Under the pieces are notes generated by a model that worked only from the letters and a program-made list of their open reading frames with translations, made no database searches and was not told the origin of the DNA. Below are positions 2,745-50,628 of a DNA stretch of 61,644 nt, piece by piece. Source of the DNA: an uncultured virus (IMG/VR IMGVR_UViG_3300037493_005316) (Duplodnaviria > Heunggongvirae > Uroviricota > Caudoviricetes). The stretch is from the IMG/VR virus record IMGVR_UViG_3300037493_005316; one strand, given 5' to 3'. Every line of letters starts with the position of its first letter. Within the stretch, counting starts at the first letter, position 1. Position numbers and translations under genes: made by a program.

Positions 2745-2784
2745 GGACTACCTCGGCTCTTCCCGGGCGTTGTACTTCACGATC

Positions 2785-5226: not shown

Positions 5227-5229
5227 GAG

Positions 5230-7638
<2,409 letters not shown>

Positions 7639-7641
7639 GAG

Positions 7642-10416: not shown

Positions 10417-10419
10417 GAG

Positions 10420-13400: not shown

Positions 13401-13440
13401 CGTAGACCCAGAGCGGTGCGCGATCGGTGAAGCGAGGCAT
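10420..13440 (-). CDS. Amidoligase_2-like protein with unique N-terminus, Cys-rich repeats, poly-Glu tract and LPxG modules (paralog A1)
   Basis: Motifs LGCEIESD, TGYHLHVD, RYYALN and GTIEIRAF. Catalytic region very similar to A2. Confidence 0.85.
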   Translation of the reverse strand: MPRFTDRAPLWVYVRQNATRYAEQGLPQEGTLVISPSAARVGVESGGSQGGSPGINIWEWIDAALDASQRREPYQPLYIPPGFEVYYPGIDALVRELQDYGWVTGNTVLVGNRVVPVSTIRPTAAAFRPAVGQFSMFAESGVPGTALVPAPEGAAPVIEETCSNCGEELDACLCAVCPNCNFRVDELCDNCGNCVDGVSPCCECVMCGARYDGHRVGAGTLCENCTYCVGEDDGAADHCSCSYCEQCNSRVDAICEECNGCDSCCSCNTCTYGERRRVSDHKHHVNTDQNPEEWCTSCDRCTACCEYVGDCFTCDDCNERQGHDNRCSLEEHEDNYHCTRCCPGVDEEEEEEEEAFSVGEEIGYGLLPQLPVGSVILANGVPYVKVVEGAAFNTHSKTWRRTNFPNDDLVSPHDLLTTAESFGDATVVTITSLPGVSASFSTGGPPATPSGLPKWGPELAALAERAVMRSTCDLHDGKRCAGGVPFRSERSHVLRFINSTTFKRNPSHRHLGCEIESDHGGQPNGFVQKIIQKWDMAVHNDPSVRGREIITLPTNGDTFIEQIEELCSAFVTDGVVVTKFGGDGTGYHLHVDARDLSWSDLKRMFTLWAHVEGAALDALRPERARGLVDFANRREDEGAEGAILDPRRRTGGEEGSEEHEAEAKKAVIAALNRPRGAKAKKADLTPEGRLRAGIKAERRTLATSPSGDWQAARFPSERYYALNGMSLFRYGTIEIRAFEGTSNAEDIVCWGMLWAAFTDMTKGMSRKKMLQIIQQNPRSVLLDAAPNARTKLWLKRRWKLYAPEGVEGVKGRKGLRPVKKAATGEVSVTHPALGGEIDELSVLTSLPVGAIVEDRYYRRAQRYLDDAGLPVWGGSDVGEDISSADLISLGAVQTLIAFEGNPDFLPLPVVGQRVTARQLTELPMGAVVRNGSENYVKVVDPATVDLDTDERIHQDEWRLIRSPNITFSAQEISTGSIVVSFPRAAPTPAPGAPPSLRGELRRPWRR

Positions 13441-35931: not shown

Positions 35932-36371
35932 GGCATTTCCCACGGCGGAACGGGTTTCGGCTCTTCGGGCGTCTCAGGCGTGAAACGGTCTCGCAAAGGC
36001 TTCGGAAGGAACTGACCGAGCGTCTCCCACCACGTCTTCTTCTCGTCGCGAAGCTTCATCCACCAGCGTGAATTCGCGGCTTCGTACGCGCGTGCAGCTT
36101 CGGCATGCTCGGGGCAGAAAGTTCCGCTAAACGTAGCGCGCCACCCCGAGTGCTGCGGCGGCGGTGTTTCGTATCCGATGCCCCTCTCCCAGAGAGCCGC
36201 GTGCGTGGGGTTTTTCGCCTCGTATTCAGGGTGGGGCGTCCACTCGGGCGGCATCACGTGGTACTCACCCGGCGGGAACCACACCGTGGCGATTCGCACG
36301 TGTGCGTCGCACGTATCGATCGCGCAACGGTACTCTCGAACGACGCGCGTGGTGTCCTTACGGCGCTTCAT
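35928..36371 (-). CDS. Hypothetical protein
   Basis: AAGGAG RBS and ATGA overlap. Confidence 0.55.
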   Translation of the reverse strand: MKRRKDTTRVVREYRCAIDTCDAHVRIATVWFPPGEYHVMPPEWTPHPEYEAKNPTHAALWERGIGYETPPPQHSGWRATFSGTFCPEHAEAARAYEAANSRWWMKLRDEKKTWWETLGQFLPKPLRDRFTPETPEEPKPVPPWEMP

Positions 36372-37222
36372 GACCCGTACTCCTTGACGCACGCGCGCAT
36401 CGTGTTGTCGTGAAGATCAAGTACCTTCCTGAGTGGGCGCACGTACCCCCCAGCAAGATTCCAGACGACCGGAACCTGCATCGCGTGCAGCCAGCGGAAC
36501 ACGATCCGGTCCCGCTCCAGCAGTTGCTCGGTCGAGAGGACTCCCCGACCGAAGGGATCCTCAGAGTGGGGATCTGCACCGGCTTGGTAGAGCACGAGTC
36601 CACACCCTGCAAACGACTTCACGATGTCGGGCAACCTCTGAAGCCACGCATCCCCGTCACCGCGATGGATACGTTCGTCCCCGTACGAGTAGTGCTGGAC
36701 GTTCGGATCTACCCCCGCCCGACGCCCTTGGTCGATGATATCGTCCGTACCGTTTCCGTAGTGCTCGTCCAGGTCGAGGACCCCGATCCTGTCGGTGTAT
36801 CCATCGGCCCTCAACGCAAGCACAGTCACCATCAGCCCGTTGAACGTGCAGAATCCCTCACAGCGATTGTATGAGGCGTGGTGAAACCCGCTCGTAGGCG
36901 ACACAGCGACGGGGACGCGTTCCTGCACCACAAATCGCCCCGCTGACAGCATCGACCCCGTTGTCCATGGCAAGGCATGGGCCACTGCTCTGGAACGGGT
37001 GCCGAAGCCGTTTGCGCGGGTCAGATTTAAGACCCCTCGAACGAAATCCGGATCGTGGGCGCGATCGAAGTCTTCGAGCGTCGCGGGGACCGGTTCGTGG
37101 ATCTGGAAGGGGAAGTTTTGGGTCCGCCACGACGCGACCACCTCGGCGGGCTTCTTGGCGGACGGGCTCGCGCCGACGTGTTCCGTGACGACTTGTCTGG
37201 GGTCATAGAAAACAGGAATCAT
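36368..37222 (-). CDS. Histone deacetylase (Zn-dependent HDAC/AcuC) family protein
   Basis: GFHHA, GFCTFN, LDLDEHYGNGT, YQAGADPH..DPFG and LAGGY. Confidence 0.92.
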   Translation of the reverse strand: MIPVFYDPRQVVTEHVGASPSAKKPAEVVASWRTQNFPFQIHEPVPATLEDFDRAHDPDFVRGVLNLTRANGFGTRSRAVAHALPWTTGSMLSAGRFVVQERVPVAVSPTSGFHHASYNRCEGFCTFNGLMVTVLALRADGYTDRIGVLDLDEHYGNGTDDIIDQGRRAGVDPNVQHYSYGDERIHRGDGDAWLQRLPDIVKSFAGCGLVLYQAGADPHSEDPFGRGVLSTEQLLERDRIVFRWLHAMQVPVVWNLAGGYVRPLRKVLDLHDNTMRACVKEYGS

Positions 37223-37228
37223 GCCGGT

Positions 37229-37256
37229 AGCGTAACCTGTACGGATACGCTGTCAA
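37229..37256 (-). promoter_or_regulatory. Sigma70-like, probably leaderless promoter with palindromic operator
   Basis: TTGACA-N16-TACGCT-N6-ATG. GTAACC-N5-GGATAC at 37232-37248. Confidence 0.55.
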
Positions 37257-37540
37257 GTATTGAGCGCGGACGCGAACGCCGCGAACCCTGCCGCGAACGC
37301 CTTCCGCATCTGCGCGTTGCTCGCGGCGCTGGCGGCGTCTCGCGCCTCTTCCCGAAGGACGTGGGCGGACGAGGAGTAGTTCGGGATGGCGATTTCGCCG
37401 TCTTGAGCCGATCCCCCCTTCGCGATGAGCAGTTCCCAGGTGACGGTCTCCCCGTAGGAAGTGCGCTTTTCGAGGATTCGTTCGTCGGCCTCCAACGTGT
37501 AGCCGTTGTCTTTCGTGATCGTGACGATTCGCAGGGTCAT
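37253..37540 (-). CDS. Hypothetical protein
   Basis: GGAG RBS and ATGA overlap. Confidence 0.55.
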   Translation of the reverse strand: MTLRIVTITKDNGYTLEADERILEKRTSYGETVTWELLIAKGGSAQDGEIAIPNYSSSAHVLREEARDAASAASNAQMRKAFAAGFAAFASALNT

Positions 37541-39141
37541 TTGTTGCTCCAGTTTGTTGGCGAGATGGGCGCGGGCGTCGGAGGTTTCGTTTTCGCGTAC
37601 CAGTACGCCACGCGCTTCTTCGCGATCTCGGCGTACGGACCCTCGCGTTCGATACCGATGACGGGGAAGCCCTCGATCAGCGCGGCGCAGGCTGTCGTGC
37701 CCGAGCCGAGGAAGGGATCGATGACCTTCCCCCCCGGCGGGGTTACGAGCCGCAGCACCCACGACATCAACCTCAACGGCTTCACGGTTATGTGGTTGTT
37801 CACGCGCTTCTGGCCCTCGACGGGCTCCAAGCCTTCATCCCGGTCCTTCGGACTCACCTTCGTTTCGTAGAACATGGGGAGGTCGTCGGCGTCCATCGCC
37901 CAGTCGAACGTGGGGAAAAAGCGATCAACGGTGCCTTCGTCGCCGTACTCCGTCATCTTTTTGCCGACGAGCGTGTCGTCCGCACCGTACACGTTGCTGT
38001 CCTTCGCCTTGCGCTTCACAGCGCCGATTCCAGACTTCTTGACCCCATTCACGTCAGCGAGGGTTCGGACAGCGCACCAGGGCACGCATGCGTAGAGAGA
38101 AACGATTTCGTTGCCGTCGGCGTCACCAAGACCTACAGGGTCTCCAAGCTCCGCCTCATCGGCACCTCGGTACCCACCGCTGTACTGACCGCCGGTCTTC
38201 CACGAGCCACTCTTGGTCCCGGTAATCGCCTTCACCCTCCGGTCACCAATTCTGACACACTCGGGCGCGTGAGTGAGCAAGAAGTCCTTAGGGTGGCGGC
38301 CCTTTTTCTGCCCTTCGTTCTGATGTGTCTCCTGCGCCGCGGAGTCTCCGTAGACACCTTTTGAAACAGCGGACTCGGCGCCGCGGCTGTGGGTGCTCGT
38401 CTCATCCGTTCCCTTCGTGCGACAGGCGCCGATGTTCAGAACGCCCGTGCCCCACTTGAGCACGTGCTCCGCGATGGTCCCGTCCAGAGGCTTTCGCGCG
38501 AGAATGATGGGTTCGTGAGACGGCGACAGGTCGTCACCGAAATCGGACCATTCTGCGGATGCGGACGAGCCAGGAGCCGTGATCGTCGCTCCGTTTTCCG
38601 TGCGATCACAGACGTTACCCGTGTCATCGAGAGCGCCGACAGACCCAGAAGTGTACAGCCGGTTCGGGCGCACGCGAGACGCGTCGAAGCCTACGACCGC
38701 ACGCTCAGTTCCGAGGTATTCGTCGATACGCTTGGACGTATCGCGGCCCTTTGGCAGCCCTTTCGATTGGACCCAAGAAATCGTTCCACGGGACTCGAAT
38801 CCTGCGAGACGCAACGACAGGCCCATCAGGTCTACGGTCTTCGCCCCCGCGAAGCAGGCGATCCACCCTCCGGGCTTCAACACCCGATAGACCTCTCTCC
38901 AGATGTGCGGGCCCGGAACGAACGAGTCCCACTCGGCACCCATGAAGCCGCTCTGTCCTGGTGAGTAGTGTAGACCCGAGAGCCATGCCTTCAGCATATC
39001 CTCGGCGTCTGGCTCTTTCCCGAGCCCGTAGGGAGGGTCGGTTACGGCCGCATCGAGGGTGTTGTCGGGGAGCTGGCGAAGGACGTCCAGGCAGTCCCCT
39101 CGGAACACCTTCGCACGGAACGGTTTGGAGAGATCGATCAC
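37537..39141 (-). CDS. DNA methyltransferase, N4-C/N6-A, beta class
   Basis: N-terminal TDPPY, H.TVKP and C-terminal DPFLGSGTT. Confidence 0.92.
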   Translation of the reverse strand: MIDLSKPFRAKVFRGDCLDVLRQLPDNTLDAAVTDPPYGLGKEPDAEDMLKAWLSGLHYSPGQSGFMGAEWDSFVPGPHIWREVYRVLKPGGWIACFAGAKTVDLMGLSLRLAGFESRGTISWVQSKGLPKGRDTSKRIDEYLGTERAVVGFDASRVRPNRLYTSGSVGALDDTGNVCDRTENGATITAPGSSASAEWSDFGDDLSPSHEPIILARKPLDGTIAEHVLKWGTGVLNIGACRTKGTDETSTHSRGAESAVSKGVYGDSAAQETHQNEGQKKGRHPKDFLLTHAPECVRIGDRRVKAITGTKSGSWKTGGQYSGGYRGADEAELGDPVGLGDADGNEIVSLYACVPWCAVRTLADVNGVKKSGIGAVKRKAKDSNVYGADDTLVGKKMTEYGDEGTVDRFFPTFDWAMDADDLPMFYETKVSPKDRDEGLEPVEGQKRVNNHITVKPLRLMSWVLRLVTPPGGKVIDPFLGSGTTACAALIEGFPVIGIEREGPYAEIAKKRVAYWYAKTKPPTPAPISPTNWSNK

Positions 39142-41555
39142 TTCGCCACCTTCATCAAAGCGTTCTCGCTCTCTTTCGCCTTTGCGCTCCAGTACGTGAG
39201 CCGCGCCTTGATGATCTCGACGTACTCAGCTTCACGTTCAATCAAAACGGGGCGGAACCCTTCCAGCACAGCCGCGCAACCCGTAGATCCACTTCCCGCG
39301 AAGGGGTCGAGAACGATCCCCCCTGGAGGCGTGACGAGCGTGATCAGCCACTTCATCAGGGCGATCGATTTCAGCGTCGGATGGGTGTTCCCACGAGATC
39401 CACCGCTCGCGGACTTCAACTCCCCGCAACCCGCTTCACGCTCTTTCGTGCTTGGCTTCGCGAAGTAGTGAAAGGGCGCTTTAAGCTCGGAGAGTCCTGC
39501 GGATCCGAGAACAGGGTCCTCTTGTTCCGCGGACCAATCAAACGTCGGGAACATACGGGAAGCGCCACCGCTGTCGCCCCGAACGAAAGGGGCCGAGGAC
39601 TTTCGATTGAACGAAGGGATGGCCTCGTTTCCCGACTTCTTGTTGTCCCCAGTGGCGCCTCCACCAGACATTCCTGGGCGAGCGCCGCTCTGCGCATCCA
39701 ACTCGGCGACCGGACACCCTTCCACACACGTCCAGGTCGCGACTTCCTGATCCCCATGCAACGATCCGTGAGGCACACCGTCGGATTTTACTTCCCCGAC
39801 GTTGTAGAACCCAGGCTCCCGAGGGGAGTAGTCGGGGGTACGGTTGTCCCCCTTTACGACGACGGTGCCTGTACGAATGCACCCCGTTGTGCGGCTTAGC
39901 TCAAAACAGGGGGCCAGCAGAGGATGAAGCATGTAGCCAGCCACTTCAAGTTCGAGTTCTCCAGGCGTAACGCACGAAGTTCCCGATCCGCCGCTCGATG
40001 ATCCTTCGAGTGCTCCGTCCGGTCCACTACCTCCAAGTTTTCCGGCCGATTGTCCCCCTTCTCCCCGTTTTTGTGATGCACTACCTCGCTCCGGTGCAGG
40101 GGCCGCCCTAACACCCTCGCCATCGTGATTCGGTGTTCCAGAATGTATGCCCTTCCGGGGTTCATATGAGCCGCCAACACCTGATCTTCCGGTGTCAGTA
40201 GGGCCACAATCGTATGAACGTACCCCGCCGTGTCCGTAGTTCTCCCCCCCTTCCACTGGCTCGATTCGGATAGGCGATTCCCCTTCCGAGCGCGCATTTT
40301 CGCCAGGGATGCCTCCGAGTGGCGCTTCCCTGTCCGTGTGCGCGGAGTCCAGTATTTTCGATGACATGGTTTGGAGCAAAACTTCCGGCGCCCGTTCCGC
40401 ACCCACGCGGGAGTCACTTGGAATGGTGTCGCGCAGTGGAGACAGACAATCGTCACCCATGCGATTTTCCTTATGGCTTTTTTTGACGCTCCAACGCACC
40501 CCTTTGAGCAGTATTTCCGTTTTTTCAGCGCGCTCGGAATCCCCCGAAACTCCGTGCCGCAATGCACGCATGGCTTCGTCAATGCCGTAGTAGGAGTGGA
40601 TCTGGTCACGCATCAACTCCGGGGTGGTGGCCGCCAAAGTATACCACGGAATGATCGCGTGGCTGAACACGGTGTTCGGCGGCCAACGGCCCGTAGCAGA
40701 AAACTCCATATCCGAGCCTCGACCGTCAAGCAGGCCCGCACGGCTCTCTGTATAAACCTTGTCGCTTTTACCGCTCCCCTTATACGTTCGGGTTTCTACT
40801 CCGACCCGGCTCCCGTCGATGTTCAACGCACCCGTGCCATACTTCTGGACGTTCGCCGCGACAGTTTTTTCGGAGCAAGGCTTACGGCAGAGAATCCAAT
40901 CCTCGCGGGAAGGCTTCAACGCGGTGCCCCATCCGTCCCACTGCTTCGCTGCATCGGTGGCGGGCGCCGTAATCTTAGCTTCCCCTTGCCAACCGTAGGT
41001 TGTTTCTGGGTTTCCAGCCATGTAGGTACCCGTCATTTTCCCAGCGGGGGCGGGGTGGTCGCCCACCACCTCCCGCTCCGCGCCCGCCGCCTTGTCGATT
41101 GCCTTGGATATACTTAGGCTTTTCGGGAATCCACTCAAAAACATGTGTGAAATTACTTCCCTCACCTCGAACCCTGCGTCTTCCAGCGCGGTCGTCGTCC
41201 AATGGACCGTGCGCGGGATGCCCCACACGATCGCGTGTCCACCGGGTTTGAGCACGCGAAGGCACTCGGCGAAGACGGGAGTAATCCCGGAGATAAACTG
41301 ATCCCGGGCACGAAGATGCTCCGCCCTGTTTCCTTTGTGCTGCCCGATGCGCGGGGACTCGATCCCGACAGAGCCCCCATAGACGTTGTAGTTCGCCACA
41401 CCGTCGGGTTTATCCCATTCTTTGCCCATAAAAACTATTCCCGCGGGCGGATCCGTACAGATCGCGTCGATGCTGTTGTCCGGAATGGACTTCAGTACCT
41501 GGGCCGAATCCCCTCGGAACACCTTCGCGCGGAACGGTTTGGACAAGTCGATCAC
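39138..41555 (-). CDS. DNA methyltransferase, N4-C/N6-A, beta class, with ~256-codon in-frame insertion
   Basis: TDPPA, HPTLK and DPFAGSGST. First 16 aa identical to the adjacent MTase. Confidence 0.88.
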   Translation of the reverse strand: MIDLSKPFRAKVFRGDSAQVLKSIPDNSIDAICTDPPAGIVFMGKEWDKPDGVANYNVYGGSVGIESPRIGQHKGNRAEHLRARDQFISGITPVFAECLRVLKPGGHAIVWGIPRTVHWTTTALEDAGFEVREVISHMFLSGFPKSLSISKAIDKAAGAEREVVGDHPAPAGKMTGTYMAGNPETTYGWQGEAKITAPATDAAKQWDGWGTALKPSREDWILCRKPCSEKTVAANVQKYGTGALNIDGSRVGVETRTYKGSGKSDKVYTESRAGLLDGRGSDMEFSATGRWPPNTVFSHAIIPWYTLAATTPELMRDQIHSYYGIDEAMRALRHGVSGDSERAEKTEILLKGVRWSVKKSHKENRMGDDCLSPLRDTIPSDSRVGAERAPEVLLQTMSSKILDSAHTDREAPLGGIPGENARSEGESPIRIEPVEGGENYGHGGVRSYDCGPTDTGRSGVGGSYEPRKGIHSGTPNHDGEGVRAAPAPERGSASQKRGEGGQSAGKLGGSGPDGALEGSSSGGSGTSCVTPGELELEVAGYMLHPLLAPCFELSRTTGCIRTGTVVVKGDNRTPDYSPREPGFYNVGEVKSDGVPHGSLHGDQEVATWTCVEGCPVAELDAQSGARPGMSGGGATGDNKKSGNEAIPSFNRKSSAPFVRGDSGGASRMFPTFDWSAEQEDPVLGSAGLSELKAPFHYFAKPSTKEREAGCGELKSASGGSRGNTHPTLKSIALMKWLITLVTPPGGIVLDPFAGSGSTGCAAVLEGFRPVLIEREAEYVEIIKARLTYWSAKAKESENALMKVAK
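39896..40609 (-). CDS. HNH homing endonuclease nested in the +1 frame of the MTase
   Basis: Two CxxC...(Y/F)CSxxC fingers, QWKGG and YILEHR..MA..LGRPL...EVVHHKNG.K.DNRPENL. Own GGAG RBS and TGgTATACT. Confidence 0.85.
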   Translation of the reverse strand: MTRSTPTTALTKPCVHCGTEFRGIPSALKKRKYCSKGCVGASKKAIRKIAWVTIVCLHCATPFQVTPAWVRNGRRKFCSKPCHRKYWTPRTRTGKRHSEASLAKMRARKGNRLSESSQWKGGRTTDTAGYVHTIVALLTPEDQVLAAHMNPGRAYILEHRITMARVLGRPLHRSEVVHHKNGEKGDNRPENLEVVDRTEHSKDHRAADRELRALRLENSNLKWLATCFILCWPPVLS

Positions 41556-41764
41556 GGTGTAGCCCTCTCAAGTCCTGCCAGAATCGCCCTCGCCATCCCG
41601 ATCCCATCGTCAACGCTCGCGCAGCCCCGGCGCGTGACCCCGAACACTTCCACCTCGAAGTCGCAGGTGTAAACGCCCTTCGGAGCGGGGCGCACCTCGG
41701 CCACATGCCGCTCGCCTTGGAAGGCCGAAGCCTTCGTGGGGTGTCGGTACCAGATGATGTTCAC
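41552..41764 (-). CDS. Small hypothetical protein
   Basis: GTGA overlaps at both ends. Confidence 0.45.
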   Translation of the reverse strand: MNIIWYRHPTKASAFQGERHVAEVRPAPKGVYTCDFEVEVFGVTRRGCASVDDGIGMARAILAGLERATP

Positions 41765-42282
41765 GCGCTCACCACGCGCAGAATCGCGCCCCACGTGGCG
41801 AACGCTGTCTCGAACTTCGTATCGTTACTCCCCCAGTACACAGCCGCTACCGCCATCGGCGCACCCTTATTTCCCCCTCCGATGAACGGAAAGCGCGGCG
41901 TTCCGACGAAACAGATTCGCGAGCACGAAGGAAACACGTATTCTTTCCAGTGGCGGGTATTGGGCGCAACGGGCACGAGTGCGATGACTTCGGAACCCTC
42001 TAAAGCCGAGGTGTGACATCTCTGAAGCCAGTCGCGAATCGTCGTTCCGCGAAGAGCGTCCCTCCCGTACGGAGGGTTACAGAACACCGTTTTGTAAGGG
42101 GTCCACGACAGCGAGAGACCGTCCTGAGGAAGATGGAAAGACGTCGTTGCACGCACAACGGATCCAACTCCTGCACAGGGATCGAGATCGACGGTGCCTA
42201 GAACCTCGTAGACCGACGACAGAAAGGCGGGTGGGGTGAACCACTCCTTGTCTGTTGTGACGCTCTGGCGACCCGCGGTCAC
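41761..42282 (-). CDS. Phage-type N6-adenine DNA methyltransferase (Dam-like)
   Basis: EWFTP, DLDPCA, DGL...W, VFCNPPY and LVP....T.HW. Confidence 0.85.
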   Translation of the reverse strand: MTAGRQSVTTDKEWFTPPAFLSSVYEVLGTVDLDPCAGVGSVVRATTSFHLPQDGLSLSWTPYKTVFCNPPYGRDALRGTTIRDWLQRCHTSALEGSEVIALVPVAPNTRHWKEYVFPSCSRICFVGTPRFPFIGGGNKGAPMAVAAVYWGSNDTKFETAFATWGAILRVVSA

Positions 42283-42563
42283 GGCTTCGTCTCATTCAGG
42301 TATTCGGCAAGCGTATCGCCGTGACACCGCTTGGGAGCACAGAAGCAGCCTAGACGCTTGCCTTTCAGCTCCTCGACACGGCGCTTGAACTCGGGGTCTG
42401 AAGCGATGCGTGCCTGGAAGTAGCCCTTGTACCTCGCCAACACCAACGAGCGCTGGGCTTCCCTGTCCAGGGGAAAAGGGTTGCCGAAGTAGCCGTCCTG
42501 GCCCTTCCCCGCACGGCCAATGTAGACGTCGTAGCCGTCTTTGATGTGCACGACAATTGTCAC
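42279..42563 (-). CDS. DUF4326-like protein
   Basis: YDVYIGR, FGNPF and LKGKRLGCFCAP..CHGD.L. Confidence 0.85.
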   Translation of the reverse strand: MTIVVHIKDGYDVYIGRAGKGQDGYFGNPFPLDREAQRSLVLARYKGYFQARIASDPEFKRRVEELKGKRLGCFCAPKRCHGDTLAEYLNETKP

Positions 42564-42736
42564 GGCCAAACCCCAAGCGTCTTCTGAATTTCCACCCACA
42601 TCGTGTCCCACTCGCTCGACGAAGGACCCTCCTCGCCACGACTGCGCGCACGCGACACGGCCATCGCGTAGTGGAACACCTCACGCCGATCTTGGGCTGC
42701 GAGGCGTTGATACAAAGCGGCGCGCTTGGGATCCAC

Positions 42737-43243
42737 CTACAGATCCTTGCCTGCGTGGATCAATCTCTCCGCCAGGGCCACGGTCCCCTCAAGCGTGTCG
42801 CGGATGCCATACGCCAGCCATGGACCCAGGCGGTGGCGGATGTACTTCTCCCCCGTAAATCCAGGTTCAATACCGATCGCAACACGAGCCCCACGCGCGA
42901 TCGACCACTCCCCCAACTCGAAGCGCGTGGTCTGGGCATACGCACGCTCACAGGAGTGATCCTGCTCCTTCGCGAGCCAGAACAGGATCACGCCCTCGCG
43001 TGCGGCGCGCTGAAGCCAACGCGTCTCCCAATCCACTTGCTCGGCGTACTGGACAGCGCCGAACTCCCCCTCGAAACGTGTGACCCGCTTCGGATTCGCG
43101 ATGTGGATTTCCGGTGCGGACGCGAACATCTCGGTCGCCCGGGGTTGCCAATCCGGCGCCCCCTGAATCGGTCCCGCAAGGAACACGACGGGGCCCGTGA
43201 CCTTGAACGGGTCGGTGGGATCTGGAGGGAGGAAGAGGCTCAT
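42737..43243 (-). CDS. Nucleoside 2-deoxyribosyltransferase-like protein
   Basis: VFLAGPIQGAPDWQ, IANP, QVDWE, ILFWL and TTRFELG. Confidence 0.8.
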   Translation of the reverse strand: MSLFLPPDPTDPFKVTGPVVFLAGPIQGAPDWQPRATEMFASAPEIHIANPKRVTRFEGEFGAVQYAEQVDWETRWLQRAAREGVILFWLAKEQDHSCERAYAQTTRFELGEWSIARGARVAIGIEPGFTGEKYIRHRLGPWLAYGIRDTLEGTVALAERLIHAGKDL

Positions 43244-47303: not shown

Positions 47304-50300
47304 TCATTTTGGTTCCCACGGGATCAACACTCCCTCGGCGTTGAACTTGGGTTCTGCGTCCTTGTACCACCTTCGCATCAGCAGTGGATCCGCCTTGACT
47401 TTGACGTCGGGCGTAAAGTGTTTCATCCCTGTGATCATCAAGTGCGCGAGGCGAGCGGCTGCAAGGGGGGCGTTCTCGTTGTCTCGCGTTTCCAGGACGA
47501 ACTCGTCGTGCAGGAACAGCACGAGACGCGAACCGAAAAGAGCTGTGGGCCCCTTGCCGTCTCGGTAAGGGTCTTCAAGGTAGCACTCCTTAAAGATCAT
47601 CCAGCCTGCGCGCTTCGCTCCGTCGGCAGCCATCCCTTGGAAAAGGGTGTTACAACCGTCATTGTAGCCACACCCACCTCGGACTCTACCCGAGCGCAGT
47701 TGCTCGATGCGCGATTTGCCTTGCATCTCGGGTTCTGGGTGCTCCCAGCGAATTCGCTTGCCGAGGTTCGTTGCGGGACGTCCGGGCTGGCCCATGTACC
47801 GAAGATACAGGACCATCTCAGACCACTTGCGAAGCCACACAGGTTTCAGTTGCCGCGCCTTGTCCGCAGTAATGAGGACACCATAGTTCGCGCGTGCGAA
47901 TTCAACGAAGCTGTCAGGACCCATCCCACCTGGAAAACCGAAGTTCAGGCACTGACCCGTTACAACGGGCGTATCGCCATCCCGAACGACAACGAATGTC
48001 GCAGGAACAGAGAGACAGACCACGTTCCCTGTATAAGGAATGCGCGTGACTTCAAGATTTTCACCTCTCGTGAGATGGTGGTCTTTGACGCTCAACCTCC
48101 AACAGACAGCGTGCGCTGGCTGTTCCGGATCGTATTCTCGGGAAACGCGAACACGCGTCTTCCTCCCCTCCAGAGTCGCAATCGCCTGAAGGACATCAAT
48201 GTTCTGACGGATAGTCGAGTAGTACGCAAACATAGTCCAGTTTTCAGAAACAGTGCCGTCCCAGTGTGCCACCTCATCTAGCACCACCTGACGGAGTCGC
48301 GGCGTCAGATGGATCCACCACCAGGGCAACTTTTTCTCGTCAAGGCCCTCTTTGACGCACTCCGCCAGCGGTGCATCGAGAACGAACAGCGCCGCCCCTT
48401 GGGATGTGACGCTCTCTGTATAAAGACTCTCGAAGCCTATAAGGAGCTTGCGCATCCGTTCGATCTTACGAACTTTGCTGAAACCGAGACGTATCTGCTT
48501 CCCGAACGTGGTGTAGTTCCCATCCGCCTGAGTTGCGACAGCGAGACGAAGTAGTCGTTCGTCTATTTCCATAGCACCTGCCAGACACTTCCCTGTGTTA
48601 GGCCAGTATCGAACCTTCGCCATGTCTTCGGGCGTTACAACCTTGACGTTTCCAACGCACTTATTTTTCGTACTGTACGAAAACGCCAACATCCTATGGT
48701 CAGGCGTGACGCGTAGATCGATTCCTTCGTTTTTAAGATGAACAAGCTCGCCGCCTTCGTTCGGCTTCTCGAAGATATTTGTCGGGACTTCCCAACGCGT
48801 TTCAACAGCGCCGCCCGCTTGTGGATACGCCGCGAGAACTTCGTCGCCTGAAACCAGATCCAGGATCTTCGACCAGCCACGTCTCGTCAGAACCTCAGTG
48901 TCTGGATGAAAACACTTCGCCAACTGACGAGCTTCTTTAACAACTTTTTCTCCTTTGCGTGCGAGTGCCTCCTCGTACGAAATCCCAAGCAACTGCGCAG
49001 CTACGTCCGTGTGGGGATCCAGATCCCCGTTAATAGCCGCCGCCAACTTGCTAATACCGAACAGGTCGAGACACGCCTGCGCCAACGTACAAAGCTCAAT
49101 GAAGCTATAGTCCGCCTCAGCGTAGAGCCAGCCCCGACGCGGGATGAAACACTCCCGAATTCCGCCTTTTCGCGGGGGTTGCTGCAAATTTGGGTCGCGC
49201 GCTGAAGTGCGCCCAGACGCCACAATTTCGTTCCAGTAGGGGTTGATCGGTACTTGTGTTCCCGACAGAAGCGTGGGCACAAACGTCGTCAGGATCTTCT
49301 CGACTCCGGAACGTTCTCCAACTGCACGAAGAGTGCCGTTCACACACCCATCAGTACACCCACCCGTCCGAACCTGCTTCCCCGTCGCGTCTTTCTCGAA
49401 TTTTAGATCCGTGCATTCAGGCAGACACGGATACGGAGACGCGAGCAGCGTGTCACGGTCTGTCGCGATGTTCGGAGGCTTCGGGTTCCCGTCCTTGTCG
49501 GGCTTGCTCCCACCCGCCGTTTTTGGCGCGCGGTCTTCCCCCCCATACGCCAGAACGACGAGACTCCGAAGCGCCTTCATGTCCTTACTTTCGACCTCGA
49601 CGCCCTTCGCCATCTTGGATTTGAGCAGGCCCGCCTTTCGCAGCACGTCGTTCATGTGCGCGTATTCGGCCTTCGCGTTTTCAGCGAGGTCGGCCACACG
49701 CACAGGATCTGTACGAACGCCCCACGCCCCCATGAACTTGAGCCAAAGCGCACCCCGTGCCTGCGGGTGCTCGTCGGGGATTGGACCTTCAGCCTCGACC
49801 TGTTGATGTATCCAAATTGCCATCGTCCACCGCGGGTCGTCGATCGCATACCCGAACGCCCTCTCCGGCCACTGCGCCAAAGGTACGTCATCCAGTTCAC
49901 GATACCGAAGACGCCAGGGGGCTTCCTGCCCCTTCGCGAGCCCTTCATACACCACCTGCCCGTTGGGCAGTACCTTGGCCTTCCCCTTCTCCTCTGAGAT
50001 GTCGACGTTGAATCGACGCTTGATGATCGCCGCGAGGTTGAAGCGGTTCTTAGCCTTCGCGCCCACCTCGCCTTCGTCGGCAAGCAACCCTTTCGACAGC
50101 AGGATCAACTTGTCCCGTACTCCCGTGTCTTCGACGCGATCCTCATCGTAAGCACGAGCGATCTTTGGAAGCAGCGTCGCGTCAATCGCACAGCACACGG
50201 CGAAGTCGTAGGCAATGTTGTGCCCGACGATCACCCACCCGTTGTCGAGGAACGCGTGCAGGAGGTAGATCGCGTCGTCGCGAAGGTAGAGTCCTGACTC

Positions 50301-50522
50301 CCCCTTCTCCGTACAGAAACCACCGCAGACGAGACGCGGGGCCGCGAGCCCCTGGATGATCAAGTAGGTCTCGGTGTCCACCGCCACTCGGGGACGATCG
50401 TCCCCCGTCGTGTACTTCGCATTCCGAAGCGTCATCAGCACTTCTGACGCAGACAGAACGACCGACGGTGTCGGAAGTACCGCAACCTCGGCCCCTTCGT
50501 CCTGTTCTTGCTCAAACAACAT
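47304..50522 (-). CDS. polA: Family A DNA polymerase with 3'-5' exonuclease domain and an intein
   Basis: Exo motifs DTET, GHNIAYD and YAIDD. Polymerase motifs SGRTS...PNLQ, ADYSFIEL (A), RQLAK/CLNFG (B) and LHDE (C). Confidence 0.93.
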   Translation of the reverse strand: MLFEQEQDEGAEVAVLPTPSVVLSASEVLMTLRNAKYTTGDDRPRVAVDTETYLIIQGLAAPRLVCGGFCTEKGESGLYLRDDAIYLLHAFLDNGWVIVGHNIAYDFAVCCAIDATLLPKIARAYDEDRVEDTGVRDKLILLSKGLLADEGEVGAKAKNRFNLAAIIKRRFNVDISEEKGKAKVLPNGQVVYEGLAKGQEAPWRLRYRELDDVPLAQWPERAFGYAIDDPRWTMAIWIHQQVEAEGPIPDEHPQARGALWLKFMGAWGVRTDPVRVADLAENAKAEYAHMNDVLRKAGLLKSKMAKGVEVESKDMKALRSLVVLAYGGEDRAPKTAGGSKPDKDGNPKPPNIATDRDTLLASPYPCLPECTDLKFEKDATGKQVRTGGCTDGCVNGTLRAVGERSGVEKILTTFVPTLLSGTQVPINPYWNEIVASGRTSARDPNLQQPPRKGGIRECFIPRRGWLYAEADYSFIELCTLAQACLDLFGISKLAAAINGDLDPHTDVAAQLLGISYEEALARKGEKVVKEARQLAKCFHPDTEVLTRRGWSKILDLVSGDEVLAAYPQAGGAVETRWEVPTNIFEKPNEGGELVHLKNEGIDLRVTPDHRMLAFSYSTKNKCVGNVKVVTPEDMAKVRYWPNTGKCLAGAMEIDERLLRLAVATQADGNYTTFGKQIRLGFSKVRKIERMRKLLIGFESLYTESVTSQGAALFVLDAPLAECVKEGLDEKKLPWWWIHLTPRLRQVVLDEVAHWDGTVSENWTMFAYYSTIRQNIDVLQAIATLEGRKTRVRVSREYDPEQPAHAVCWRLSVKDHHLTRGENLEVTRIPYTGNVVCLSVPATFVVVRDGDTPVVTGQCLNFGFPGGMGPDSFVEFARANYGVLITADKARQLKPVWLRKWSEMVLYLRYMGQPGRPATNLGKRIRWEHPEPEMQGKSRIEQLRSGRVRGGCGYNDGCNTLFQGMAADGAKRAGWMIFKECYLEDPYRDGKGPTALFGSRLVLFLHDEFVLETRDNENAPLAAARLAHLMITGMKHFTPDVKVKADPLLMRRWYKDAEPKFNAEGVLIPWEPK
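47952..48914 (-). mobile_element. 321-aa intein with LAGLIDADG-like endonuclease region, in polymerase motif B
   Basis: Block A CFHPDTEVLT, block B VTPDHRM, QADG and HWDG motifs, block F/G VVCLSVP...VVTGQ|C. Confidence 0.9.
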
Positions 50523-50628
50523 GCGGACTCCGGACGACAAACACACGAGCAGACGGCAGGTACACACCCACGAGCCGTGAGGCCGGGGGTGTGTACCCTA
50601 TGCAGTTACGCGAGGACTCAGGAACGGG

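What the first reader, a model, noticed from the sequence alone, without database searches (positions are those of the whole stretch)
39888..40655. Self-contained promoter-RBS-HNH cassette overprinted inside a methyltransferase whose own frame stays open
Seen: relative to the neighbouring paralog (...LLTHA-PEC.RIG), this MTase has an insertion of about 768 nt (256 codons) between FSHA and TGCIRTG. The insertion consists almost entirely of an extended -10 element (TGgTATACT, 40646-40638), a GGAG RBS (40620-40617), and a 237-aa HNH endonuclease ORF in the +1 frame that stops about 8 nt before the insertion ends. The MTase frame has no stop across it, and the inserted peptide has no intein motifs. 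There is also almost no non-coding room for a group I/II intron core. Established: homing endonucleases normally avoid disrupting the host gene by intron or intein splicing, or by lying between genes. Inference: a splicing-independent homing element tolerated as a disordered loop in the MTase variable region, or removed by an unknown mechanism such as ribosomal bypassing.
Basis: partly seen in the sequence, partly recalled or inferred. Interest (0 to 1): 0.88.

Follow-up and report, generated by a model that had tools for sequence, protein, structure and literature searches.

The report
Hidden HNH gene inside phage methylase
A selfish homing-endonuclease gene sits, shifted by one base, inside a phage DNA methyltransferase gene whose own reading frame has been kept free of stop codons, a trick first described in 2025 (the "ShiLan domain") and found here at a new site and in a new frame.

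Summary
The 805-aa N6_N4 methyltransferase ORF (39138-41555, minus strand) carries a 256-codon in-frame insertion (39888-40655). That insertion is almost filled by a 237-aa HNH_3 endonuclease ORF (39896-40609) in the +1 frame, with GGAG 7 nt before its GTG start.

The open host frame is not chance. P is about 0.001 by synonymous shuffling, and 13 of 7106 equal-length windows of this phage's own genes are stop-free. In an HNH-led search, 22 of 250 HNH matches had a same-strand frame open across the whole HNH ORF. Eighteen of those lie in methyltransferases with no intein ends, and each has 0 host-frame stops against 4-28 in the other frame.

No intron or intein signature was found. The HNH frame folds confidently (pLDDT 85.7), while most of the host-frame insert does not (below 50).

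The kind is already published as the "ShiLan domain" hidden HNH of mycobacteriophage methylases (Genes 2025, PMC11855218). The window's HNH and methylase are both homologous to ShiLan's, but the insertion site (aa 300 versus about 226), the frame offset and the HNH clade differ. This is a new variant of a known kind.

New here are the stop-avoidance statistics, the presence of a Shine-Dalgarno, and conserved host-frame peptides at both ends of the insert. The claimed internal promoter is unsupported. No expression data exist.

The parts
39138..41555 (-). Host gene: beta-class N6/N4 DNA methyltransferase ORF, 805 aa, open across the insertion
   Evidence: PF01555, E 8e-22; thousands of homologues. 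Motifs TDPPAGIVFMGKEWD and VLDPFAGSGSTG lie on either side of the insert. GC3 is 0.70 in the N part and 0.69 in the C part.
39888..40655 (-). Inserted element, 768 nt = 256 codons (MTase aa 301-556), in frame with the host and stop-free in the host frame
   Evidence: In the host frame, GC by position switches to the HNH frame's pattern. AF2 pLDDT is below 50 for aa 366-533.
39896..40609 (-). HNH_3 homing-endonuclease ORF, 237 aa, GTG start, frame +1 of the host; two CxxC...C..C zinc-finger repeats, a NUMOD-like stretch (label recalled, from no call), then an HNH core
   Evidence: PF13392; 277 homologues; every invariant column of A2 is present. AF2 pLDDT 85.7. Best PDB fold match is I-HmuI, which is weak (E 0.17). 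tblastn to the ShiLan gp65 insert gives 32.7% identity, E 4e-12.
40617..40620 (-). Shine-Dalgarno GGAG, 7 nt upstream of the HNH GTG, preceded by an in-frame TGA that closes the HNH frame upstream
   Evidence: By eye, comparable purine-rich motifs stand before the first start of 11 of 21 nested HNH ORFs.
40587..40655 (-). 5' host-frame module of the insert (aa 301-323, IIPWYTLAATTPELMRDQIHSYY). It matches the motif hydrophobic-Y/V-x-L ... I-x-x-Y-Y shared by all 9 site-A loci and lies upstream of the HNH start.
   Evidence: support is moderate: host codon position 3 is least conserved in 2 of 4 windows. AF2 strand 304-307 and helix 313-335, pLDDT about 70-80.
39888..39956 (-). 3' host-frame module of the insert (aa 534-556, LELEVAGYMLHPLLAPCFELSRT), overlapping the unconserved C-terminal tail of the HNH. 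Relatives share LEV..D(I/V)P..W(L/R).YF here; the window keeps only LEV and F-E-x-S-R-T.
   Evidence: host position 3 least conserved: 0.37-0.39 against 0.56-0.64 for position 1; HNH tails cannot be aligned. AF2 strands 537-539 and 551-553, pLDDT 61-76.
40638..40646 (-). TGGTATACT, extended -10-like string. Not supported as a promoter.
   Evidence: Present. No sigma-70-like site found. Relatives read CTCTACACT, GCGTACGCT, GTCTATCGC and TACTATACC at the aligned place.
37537..39141 (-). Insertion-free paralogous MTase (534 aa, DPPYG motif). Its GTG start overlaps the TGA stop of the 805-aa ORF (GTGA).

Best explanation
This is a ShiLan-type 'hidden HNH' homing element. It is a selfish HNH_3 endonuclease gene lodged inside a phage N6/N4 DNA methyltransferase gene, on the same strand but one base out of frame.

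The element has neither an intron nor an intein. Ribosomes translating the methyltransferase simply read through it, because the element is a multiple of three long and its host-frame reading has been purged of stop codons. The product is an 805-aa methyltransferase with a 256-aa extra segment looped out between the conserved ...RWPPN..SH and xGC... motifs. The middle of that segment is an unselected, probably disordered 'shadow' of the HNH gene. Its two ends are host-frame-conserved peptides that probably pack together and hold the loop's base closed.

The HNH itself is made at a low level by internal initiation (GGAG, 7 nt, GTG). It presumably cuts insertion-free alleles of the methyltransferase in co-infecting relatives, and repair then copies the element in (homing).

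Shown: anatomy, homology, stop avoidance, frame-specific conservation, absence of known splicing signatures.
Inferred: read-through protein, internal initiation, homing, retained methylase activity.
For: 1. Anatomy is exactly as described.

2. Stop avoidance in the window: P(0 stops) = 0.0012-0.0013 by synonymous shuffle, and 13 of 7106 control windows are stop-free.

3. The search was led by the HNH, so it was blind to the host frame. Of 250 HNH matches in 243 loci, 22 have a same-strand alternative frame open over the whole HNH ORF.
- 18 of these (17 distinct) lie inside PF01555 methyltransferases without intein ends.
- All 21 elements tested (20 of the 22 loci plus the window) have 0 host-frame stops against 4-28 in the other frame, and P(0)<=0.03 in 17 of 21.
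- Across all 250 matches, the nested ones included, the median is 4.7 and 7.6 stops per 100 codons in the two alternative frames. An intergenic HNH in L090 has 11.

4. The same insert at the same site is seen in the diverged MTases P0003, P0009 and P0043 (39, 45 and 35-37% identity), while the closest homologue P0002 (59-63%) lacks it. That patchy distribution is typical of homing.

5. Which frame is selected: HNH codon position 3 (host position 1) is the least conserved across the core, while host position 3 is least conserved at the 3' end and, less clearly, at the 5' end.

6. AF2: HNH frame pLDDT 85.7; host-frame insert below 50 for aa 366-533, with the MTase core above 85.

7. No intron model in the window or in 15 related loci, and no Hint domain.

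8. A published precedent has homologous parts. The ShiLan gp65 hidden HNH gives tblastn E 4e-12. ShiLan gp65 aligns with the window MTase. My re-derivation gives a 195-aa GTG-started ORF with 0 host-frame stops, as in PMC11855218.
Against: - There is no transcript, protein or methylation evidence. The only RNA run held only short contigs from other organisms' conserved MTase parts, and no run showed an empty allele.
- For 4 of 21 elements (the ShiLan-site group) the synonymous-shuffle test is weak (P 0.11-0.29). In that frame offset, stops depend mostly on the amino-acid sequence.
- The window's own 3' host-frame module departs from the family motif, so this copy may be partly degenerate.
- The motif IV variant DPPAG lacks the usual aromatic residue, though it is the norm in this family.
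- The codon-position profile was made on an alignment fitted to the host-frame protein, which may favour the host frame at the poorly alignable ends. It rests on 9 sequences and carries no significance test.
- Rfam's group I model is insensitive to introns with large ORFs.
Confidence: 0.8

Rival explanations
1. The HNH is no longer, or never was, a selfish homing gene. It has been domesticated by the phage, for example as a nuclease working with the methyltransferase in a nested restriction-modification-like pair, or in packaging or anti-competitor functions. Nesting would then serve co-regulation.
For: The region is crowded with modification genes: two PF01555 MTases, a Dam-like MTase, DUF4326 and a deoxyribosyltransferase-like gene. 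The HNH keeps every invariant residue of its family. The ShiLan authors raise a similar thought in their section 4.2.
Against: The same HNH clade sits at the same codon of MTases only 35-45% identical, while the closest homologue is empty. Related HNH clades occupy other conserved MTase sites and inteins. Relatives are commonly free-standing. All of this is the signature of homing rather than of a fixed partnership.
Confidence: 0.08
2. The insert is removed at the RNA level by an unrecognised self-splicing or host-assisted intron, and the open frame is a fail-safe or an accident.
For: Phage group I introns often carry HNH ORFs (recalled; also stated in PMC11855218). Covariance models can miss introns with large ORFs. 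The end of the insert resembles the upstream flank (FSHA against LSRT; 7 of 11 bases by eye).
Against: No Rfam hit at E<=10 in the window and none at E<=1 in 15 related loci. Only 46 nt + 8 nt lie outside the HNH ORF. Purging of stops and host-frame selection at the ends are unexplained if the RNA is spliced. The ShiLan authors found no intron with RNAweasel.
Confidence: 0.05
3. The methyltransferase was killed by the insertion and is a decaying pseudogene. Its frame is open by chance in GC-rich DNA, and the neighbouring paralog covers the function.
For: The DNA is 61% GC and long spurious ORFs abound. A paralog lies immediately downstream. The window's 3' module is atypical.
Against: Chance is about 0.1-0.2% for this window and cannot explain 18 further methylase-nested loci with zero stops. 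The C-terminal part keeps coding-type GC3 of 0.69 and intact motif I. The paralog's start overlaps this ORF's stop (GTGA), which would couple its translation to read-through.
Confidence: 0.04
4. The insert is removed after translation by a non-canonical intein-like or protease-dependent mechanism, or is skipped by ribosomal bypassing.
For: In-frame, stop-free insertion at a conserved motif is what inteins do. In relatives L059 and L090 an HNH of this family is nested out of frame inside true inteins.
Against: No Hint domain was found. The insert begins with Ile and ends with Arg-Thr, without Cys/Ser...His-Asn ends. AF2 shows helices and no HINT-like fold. Only about 15 and 3 codons lie outside the HNH ORF. 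Known bypassing spans tens of nucleotides, not 768 (recalled), and would not need an open frame.
Confidence: 0.03

Closest known systems
ShiLan domain / hidden out-of-frame HNH of mycobacteriophage ShiLan gp65 DNA methylase (Arsenault, Gosselin & Gogarten, Genes 2025, PMC11855218: abstract and sections 1, 3, 4 and figure legends read; Genes 2023, PMC9957025: passages read)
   Same: - The host family is the same: ShiLan gp65 aligns with the window MTase.
- The HNH family is the same (32.7% identity over aa 52-204, E 4e-12).
- The design is the same: an in-frame insert with no host-frame stops, almost filled by a same-strand out-of-frame GTG-started HNH whose stop lies within the last few bases. 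There is no intron or intein signature, and distribution among methylases is patchy.
   Different: - Site: ShiLan lies at window aa about 218-228 (ALKPS.EP...KP) and the window's element after aa 300 (RWPPN..SH|xGC).
- Frame: the host codon starts at HNH offset 1 in ShiLan and offset 2 here.
- HNH clade and size: 195 aa against 237 aa with an extra N-terminal zinc finger.
- ShiLan has no detectable RBS (paper section 4.3), while the window has GGAG.
- Hosts: ShiLan's are cultured actinobacteriophages. This is a large uncultured phage-like contig, and relatives occur in MAGs of several phyla.
Pacc40 gp60 methylase insertion with a hidden HNH/AP2-like ORF (same paper, section 3.6)
   Same: An out-of-frame nuclease-like ORF inside an in-frame, stop-free insertion of a phage methylase, at a site other than ShiLan's.
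   Different: The methylase family is different and poorly alignable, and the ORF is 160 aa and less certainly an HNH, according to the paper. I did not compare its sequence here.
Inteins carrying an out-of-frame or antisense homing endonuclease (bioRxiv 10.1101/2025.01.02.630785, passages read); here also loci L059 and L090
   Same: The endonuclease gene is overprinted in another frame of an in-frame, translated insertion. L059 and L090 carry HNHs of this same family.
   Different: Those inserts have intein ends (CLSEDTE... / ...TGN|S) and splice out of the protein. The window's insert has none.
Group I intron-encoded HNH endonucleases such as I-HmuI, and free-standing homing endonuclease genes that lie between genes or split them (recalled background)
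   Same: An HNH homing endonuclease targeting a conserved site of a phage gene. I-HmuI is the best, though weak, structural match.
   Different: There is no ribozyme, and the host gene is neither split nor spliced. Neutrality is obtained by translation through the element.

Membership tests
ShiLan-type hidden-HNH insertion element | Insertion in frame with the host methylase, a multiple of 3 long, with no host-frame stop | tested here: met
   768 nt and 0 stops. P about 0.001.
ShiLan-type hidden-HNH insertion element | Same-strand, out-of-frame HNH ORF that nearly fills the insertion | tested here: met
   714 of 768 nt, frame +1, PF13392.
ShiLan-type hidden-HNH insertion element | HNH homologous to the ShiLan hidden HNH | tested here: met
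   tblastn 32.7% identity, E 4e-12, under the gp65 CDS. However, it falls in a different blastp neighbour group from ShiLan/Cr-LKS3.
ShiLan-type hidden-HNH insertion element | Host is a methylase of the ShiLan gp65 family | tested here: met
   BLASTP E 8e-25 and collinear motif blocks.
ShiLan-type hidden-HNH insertion element | Same insertion site and same frame offset as ShiLan | tested here: not met
   Site aa 300 against about 218-228; offset 2 against 1. Hence filed as a variant, not as the same element.
ShiLan-type hidden-HNH insertion element | Patchy distribution across diverged hosts (a sign of homing) | tested here: met
   Present in P0003, P0009, P0043, L004, L005, L164 and L165, but absent from the closest homologue P0002 and from the paralog. 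No phylogenetic incongruence test was run.
HNH homing endonuclease (HNH_3, I-HmuI-like) | HNH/beta-beta-alpha-Me catalytic motif and zinc ligands conserved | tested here: met
   PF13392 E 1.1e-9. Invariant E158 H159 R160, H178 H179, N187, N191, H200, H204 and the Cys pairs are all present.
HNH homing endonuclease (HNH_3, I-HmuI-like) | Fold like a solved homing HNH | tested here: inconclusive
   AF2 pLDDT 85.7. The top Foldseek hit is I-HmuI 1u3e, but with E 0.17 and TM 0.24-0.32. No PDB hit by sequence profile.
HNH homing endonuclease (HNH_3, I-HmuI-like) | Cleaves the empty allele and promotes gene conversion | not testable with these tools
   Needs a bench assay.
Group I (or II) self-splicing intron | Ribozyme core detectable, with room for it outside the ORF | tested here: not met
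   No Rfam match at E<=10. None at E<=1 in 15 related loci. 54 nt lie outside the ORF.
Intein | HINT splicing domain with a Cys/Ser first residue and a (H)N + Cys/Ser/Thr junction | tested here: not met
   No Hint family. Ends are Ile...Arg-Thr|Thr. The AF2 model is helical or disordered. True inteins are recognisable in PolA of this window, and in L059 and L090.
Beta-class N6/N4 DNA methyltransferase (PF01555) | Motif IV (D/S/N)PP(Y/F/W) and motif I FxGxG, in the order IV...I | tested here: inconclusive
   Motif I DPFAGSGSTG is intact. Motif IV reads DPPAG (no aromatic residue), but P36 P37 A38 G39 I40 are invariant or nearly so across 61 family members, so this is a family trait and not decay. 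Activity was not tested.

The most novel reading that the evidence does not exclude
Read-through nesting may be a general, recurrent third way for homing endonuclease genes to be harmless, beside introns and inteins, and one with adaptations of its own.

One HNH_3 family has taken it up in at least three non-intein lineages. These use two frame offsets, at least two sites of the ShiLan-type methylases, and further sites in more distant PF01555 methylases, in phages and prophages of several bacterial phyla.

The site-A lineage, to which the window belongs, has also evolved host-frame terminal peptides: phi-Y-x-L...I-x-x-Y-Y at the start and LEV..D-I-P..W-L-x-Y-F at the end, the latter resembling the flanking G-R-W-P-x-N...S-H motif. 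These may act as a non-covalent clasp, a structural stand-in for intein splicing domains, so that the host enzyme folds around a 250-aa passenger.
Probability: 0.4. Interest if true: 0.72.

Novelty: new variant of a known kind. Interest (0 to 1): 0.55.

Why it matters
Homing endonuclease genes are textbook examples of selfish DNA that survives by not harming its host gene, through intron or intein splicing. The ShiLan-type elements show a splicing-free route: the gene is overprinted in another frame of an insertion that the host protein simply carries.

This window adds four things.
- It shows that the arrangement is not a curiosity of a few mycobacteriophages.
- It supplies what appears to be the first quantitative evidence that the host frame is actively kept open (searches, and the parts of the papers I read, turned up no such test).
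- It gives a case with a clear ribosome-binding site for the hidden gene.
- It gives a testable idea of how a 250-residue passenger is tolerated, namely conserved host-frame end modules.

There is also a practical side. Gene callers miss these nucleases and report oversized 'methyltransferases' with unexplained low-complexity inserts.

Tried and rejected
- **Whole-genome search.** None is held for this window.
- **Megablast of the locus against phage records.** No match.
- **First single-protein locus search.** L001-L003 hold only distant free-standing HNHs with no MTase nearby.
- **Public reads.** Seven runs hold parts of the stretch. I laid one RNA run and three DNA runs. All were contigs. 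The RNA contigs were under 95% alike (two at 95-99%) and covered only conserved MTase parts. No joint spanned the insertion and no empty allele appeared. The one 'goes back' joint is just the similar N-termini of the two tandem paralogs. So there is no information on splicing or expression.
- **Promoter.** The scan found none and the -10-like string is not conserved.
- **Hydropathy.** I tested whether the host-frame 'shadow' peptide is more hydrophilic than synonymous shuffles give. Mean z was -0.8 over 20 elements with mixed signs, which is inconclusive.
- **PDB.** A sequence-profile search with the HNH family found nothing.
- **L059.** I first read it as a non-methylase host of a splicing-free element. 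Translation showed a canonical intein (CLSEDTE...LTGN|S) in a DnaA/IstB-like ATPase, and L090 likewise holds an intein in an MTase. Both were moved to 'intein with out-of-frame HNH'.
- **L134 and L243.** Both have an open alternative frame with no recognisable host family. In L134 it barely exceeds the HNH ORF. Both were left out.
- **Check of the frame-switch on an HNH-frame alignment.** The core agrees, but the HNH tails could not be aligned, so the 3' end could not be scored that way.
- **First Rfam call on 19 loci.** Over the size limit, so I repeated it with 15 loci.
Full report
**1. What is there**

On the minus strand, an 805-aa ORF (39138-41555) matches the DNA methylase family PF01555 in two pieces. 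It is followed by a 534-aa paralog (37537-39141) that matches PF01555 end to end.

BLASTP aligns aa 1-300 and aa 551-794 of the long protein with aa 1-292 and 287-519 of the short one. A multiple alignment with insertion-free homologues places a 256-residue insertion between ...RWPPNTVFSHA and TGCIRTG.... The closest insertion-free homologue is P0002, at 59-63% identity, which reads ...PPNTVFSHG SGCVRTG.... In window coordinates the insertion is 40655-39888.

Inside it, in the +1 frame, lies a 237-aa ORF (40609-39896, GTG start) that matches HNH_3 (PF13392, E 1.1e-9).
- TGGTATACT at 40646-40638
- GGAG at 40620-40617, 7 nt before the GTG
- TAA at 39898-39896, 8 nt before the insertion ends
- a TGA that closes the HNH frame two codons before the GTG

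**2. Is the open host frame chance?**

The DNA is 61% GC and spurious ORFs of 250-315 codons exist nearby, so the question is fair. Three tests say it is not chance.

- Shuffling synonymous codons of the HNH ORF gives a mean of 5.1 stops in the methylase frame and no stop in only 0.12-0.13% of shuffles. The mechanism is visible: none of the 54 HNH codons beginning AA, AG or GA is preceded by a codon ending in T, against 34 of 183 elsewhere.
- In 31 other ORFs of this window, the same frame offset has 2.3 stops per 100 codons, and only 13 of 7106 238-codon windows are stop-free.
- The other alternative frame of the HNH ORF has 13 stops.

GC by codon position shows that inside the insertion the HNH frame carries the coding signal, with HNH third-position GC at 0.65. 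The methylase flanks keep their own signal, with GC3 of 0.70 and 0.69.

**3. Relatives**

A search with the methylase found thousands of homologues. I read 15 of them. Three (P0003, P0009, P0043; 39, 45 and 35-37% identity) carry an insertion at the same place. Its 'conservation' in the methylase frame is the shadow of HNH motifs. For example, IHSGTP lies over YILEHR, GGQS.GKL over HHKNG..DNR, and EVLLQ over RKFCSKPC.

Searching 1.84 billion representatives with the host-frame insert gave 10 proteins at E<=0.001. All matched across 200 or more of the 256 residues, and 7 of the 10 had a PF01555 hit.

These searches could only find open frames, so I also searched from the HNH side, which is blind to the host frame. 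There were 277 HNH homologues, and a 36-sequence alignment was used to fetch 240 loci from metagenome, viral and genome collections.

Of 250 HNH matches in 243 loci, 22 have a same-strand alternative frame open across the entire HNH ORF. They break down as follows.
- 16 are flanked by tblastn matches to the window methylase, N part and C part where both lie on the contig, and always in one frame.
- 3 more (L061, L158, L183) are in more distant PF01555 genes.
- L059 is in a DnaA/IstB-like ATPase.
- L134 and L243 have no recognisable host.

Inspection of the host-frame ends showed that L059 and one of the 16, L090, are true inteins (CLSEDTE.../...TGN|S) with the HNH overprinted inside. That leaves 18 loci (17 distinct, since L024 = L028) of splicing-free nesting in methylases.

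I tested 21 elements: 20 of the 22 loci (L134 and L243 were left out) plus the window. All have 0 host-frame stops against 4-28 stops in the other frame, and the synonymous-shuffle P(0) is <=0.03 in 17 of the 21. The four weak cases (P 0.11-0.29) belong to the frame offset in which stops are fixed mainly by the amino-acid sequence, so that null model is too lenient for them.

Across all 250 matches, the nested ones included, the medians are 4.7 and 7.6 stops per 100 codons in the two alternative frames. A second, intergenic HNH in L090 has 11.

**4. Not an intron, not an intein**

- Rfam at E<=10 over 37000-42500 gives only a chance lncRNA hit.
- At E<=1 over 15 related loci, including ShiLan and Cr-LKS3, there is only a tRNA, a weak tRNA-Sec and a sub-threshold twister hit elsewhere.
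- Only 46 + 8 nt of the insert lie outside the HNH ORF.
- No Hint family is found, and the insert starts with Ile and ends with Arg-Thr.
- The same tools and eyes do recognise real inteins in this window's PolA (aa 552-872) and in L059 and L090.

**5. Folding**

With a 61-sequence alignment, AlphaFold2 models the methylase core at pLDDT 85-98. Insert residues 366-533 fall below 50, and the two ends are intermediate: aa 301-330 at about 70-80 with strand 304-307 and helix 313-335, and aa 531-560 at 61-76 with strands 537-539 and 551-553. The HNH-frame product folds at mean pLDDT 85.7. Its best PDB match is I-HmuI, but weakly (E 0.17).

**6. It is a known kind**

A literature search found Arsenault, Gosselin & Gogarten, Genes 2025 (PMC11855218). 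I read the abstract, sections 1, 3 and 4, and the legends and tables. I also read passages of the 2023 forerunner, PMC9957025.

They describe the 'ShiLan domain' as follows:
- a 202-aa in-frame, stop-free insertion in the DNA methylase gp65 of mycobacteriophage ShiLan and relatives
- it hides a 195-aa HNH in the third frame, with a GTG 18 bp into the insert and a TAA in its last four bases
- no detectable intron or intein
- a patchy, homing-like distribution
- a predicted looping structure
- no detectable RBS, for which they propose leaderless initiation

The window's parts are homologous to both of ShiLan's parts. tblastn of the window HNH hits the gp65 CDS of ShiLan, Bipolar, Filuzino, OwlsT2W, Pollywog, MISSy, Murica, Starcevich, Mantra and Totinger, and the methylase of Cylindrospermopsis phage Cr-LKS3, at 31-33% identity. 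ShiLan gp65 aligns with the window methylase. I recovered the 195-aa GTG ORF with 0 host-frame stops in ShiLan.

A bioRxiv survey (10.1101/2025.01.02.630785, passages read) reports inteins with out-of-frame or antisense endonucleases, which is the category of L059 and L090. Searches for 'homing endonuclease' + 'overprinting' (0 papers), 'ShiLan domain' (2 papers) and 'out-of-frame' + 'HNH endonuclease' + 'methylase' + 'insertion' (2 papers) found nothing further.

**7. How the window differs**

The ShiLan insert lies at the ALKPS.EP...KP motif (window aa about 218-228), and the host codon starts at HNH offset 1. L024/L028, L049 and L153 map to that site. L046 and L148 share the offset and the HNH group, but I did not resolve their site.

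The window's insert lies after aa 300, with offset 2. By blastp neighbours, its HNH groups with L164, L165, L004 and L005 (47-52% identity; about 240 aa; two N-terminal zinc fingers). A shorter sister group (L006, L007, L008, L166, L011) is at the same or a nearby site. ShiLan and Cr-LKS3 group with the offset-1 loci, and L061, L158 and L183 form another group in distant methylases.

Relatives occur on contigs titled as MAGs of Lysinibacter, Omnitrophota, a betaproteobacterium and Steroidobacteraceae.

Unlike ShiLan, the window has a good Shine-Dalgarno. By eye, 11 of 21 nested HNH ORFs have a purine-rich GGAGG-like motif shortly before their first start, often overlapping a stop that closes the HNH frame. 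This was not formally tested.

The -10-like string is not conserved and no promoter was found.

**8. Host-frame end modules (new, moderately supported)**

I compared the nine site-A DNA loci codon position by codon position.
- In the methylase flank, host position 3 is the least conserved (0.40, against 0.59 and 0.81).
- In the HNH core, host position 1, which is HNH position 3, is the least conserved. At the HNH motif the values are 0.35-0.53 against 0.66-0.80.
- In the last 20 or so codons of the insert, the pattern flips back to the host frame (position 3 at 0.37-0.39, position 1 at 0.56-0.64), although the HNH ORF still runs there.
- In the first 20 or so codons, upstream of the HNH start, host position 3 is clearly lowest in two of four windows.

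Correspondingly, the host-frame peptides are shared across both site-A groups and in P0003, P0009 and P0043: phi-Y/V-x-L...I-x-x-Y-Y at the start and LEV..D(I/V)P..W(L/R).YF at the end. The HNH-frame tails, by contrast, cannot be aligned.

The end motif G-W-L-R-Y-F-E-x-S resembles the upstream flank G-R-W-P-x-N-L-L-L-S-H. This mirrors the ShiLan authors' remark that the start of their insert resembles the downstream flank.

The window's own end module is atypical (MLHPLLAPCFELSRT). The alignment was built on host-frame proteins, which may bias the ends, and no significance test was run.

I infer that these modules pack together, consistent with the moderately confident strands, and close the base of the loop.

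**9. Mechanism proposed**

- Shown: the anatomy, homologies, stop purge, frame-specific selection, and lack of splicing signatures.
- Inferred: (a) the methylase is translated straight through, giving an 805-aa enzyme with an extruded insert; (b) the HNH is made by internal SD-led initiation at a low level; (c) it cuts empty alleles and is copied in by repair.
- A further inference: the downstream paralog starts at a GTGA overlap with this ORF's stop, so a premature stop could also reduce the paralog's translation.

**10. Context**

The window is phage-like. It encodes a collagen-like tail fibre, a family A DNA polymerase with an intein, primase/helicase, exonuclease, three DNA methyltransferases, DUF4326, a deoxyribosyltransferase-like protein and a histone-deacetylase-like protein. 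The protein occurs on a contig of 123,644 bases. The runs that hold it are labelled sediment metagenomes.

**11. Verdict**

This is a real and non-random feature. Its kind was published in 2025. Here it appears as a new variant in site, frame, HNH clade, the presence of an SD, and a likely broader host range. The supporting statistics and the end-module observation were not in the parts of the papers I read; their supplements and GitHub repository were not seen. No expression evidence could be obtained.

Noticed in passing
window 47952-48914 (-), within the family A DNA polymerase ORF 47304-50567: The PolA ORF (1087 aa) carries a canonical-looking intein of 321 aa (aa 552-872). It begins CFHPDTEVLT, ends VVTGQ|C and contains a LAGLIDADG-like stretch. 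Pfam's DNA_pol_A match stops at aa 535, and PHROG hits to 'ribonucleotide reductase' and 'thymidylate synthase' families cover the intein. This phage therefore hosts at least two kinds of homing element.
   Followed up: partly
L059:2385-4124 and L090:998-2917: Here HNHs of the same family are overprinted out of frame inside true inteins (CLSEDTE... / ...RRNGK.F.TGN|S). One intein is in a DnaA/IstB-like ATPase and one is at the YG|SGFPKS site of a PF01555 methylase. Both have 0 host-frame stops where about 12 and 19 are expected. The passages I read of the 2025 bioRxiv intein survey list an out-of-frame EndoVII-like endonuclease and in-frame HNH, but not an out-of-frame HNH.
   Followed up: partly
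window 39138-39141 (-): The stop of the 805-aa methylase and the start of the paralogous 534-aa methylase overlap as GTGA. The two proteins share an identical first 16 residues (MIDLSKPFRAKVFRGD) although they are only about 38% identical overall. This suggests recent gene conversion or a constrained 5' end.
   Followed up: partly
window 41437-41451 (-) (aa 35-39 of the 805-aa MTase) and homologues P0002-P0078: Motif IV of this methylase family reads DPPAGI.FMGK.WD, with no aromatic residue after PP, and is nearly invariant in 61 sequences. The neighbouring paralog and ShiLan gp65 have DPPYG. The base-stacking residue may be supplied elsewhere, for example by the invariant F of FMGK.
   Followed up: no
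window 180-13440 (-): There are five tandem paralogous ORFs of 802-1006 aa, each with a central Amidoligase_2 (PF12224) domain. They occupy 13 kb at one end of the window.
   Followed up: no
P0008, P0009, P0241 and ShiLan gp65 (L244:693-3575): The same methylase family also carries inteins at the FG|SGFPKS site. P0009 has both the intein and the site-A hidden-HNH insert, plus a third Gly/Arg-rich insertion. These methylases are hot spots for several homing elements, as the 2023 ShiLan paper noted for actinophages.
   Followed up: partly
window 36368-37222, 41761-42282, 42279-42611, 42737-43243 (-): The neighbours of the methylases are a histone-deacetylase-family protein, a Dam-like MTase, DUF4326 and a nucleoside 2-deoxyribosyltransferase-like protein. 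This looks like a DNA-modification cluster.
   Followed up: no
window 40560-40655 (-) compared with L004, L005 and L164: The window's HNH seems to have lost the start codon used by its closest relatives. Their (A/G)TGAC(G/C)TCCC aligns with the window's GCCACCACCCC, which is followed by an in-frame TGA. The window HNH restarts 9-12 codons later at a GTG with its own GGAG, and it still includes the conserved PTTAL.KPC motif.
   Followed up: partly
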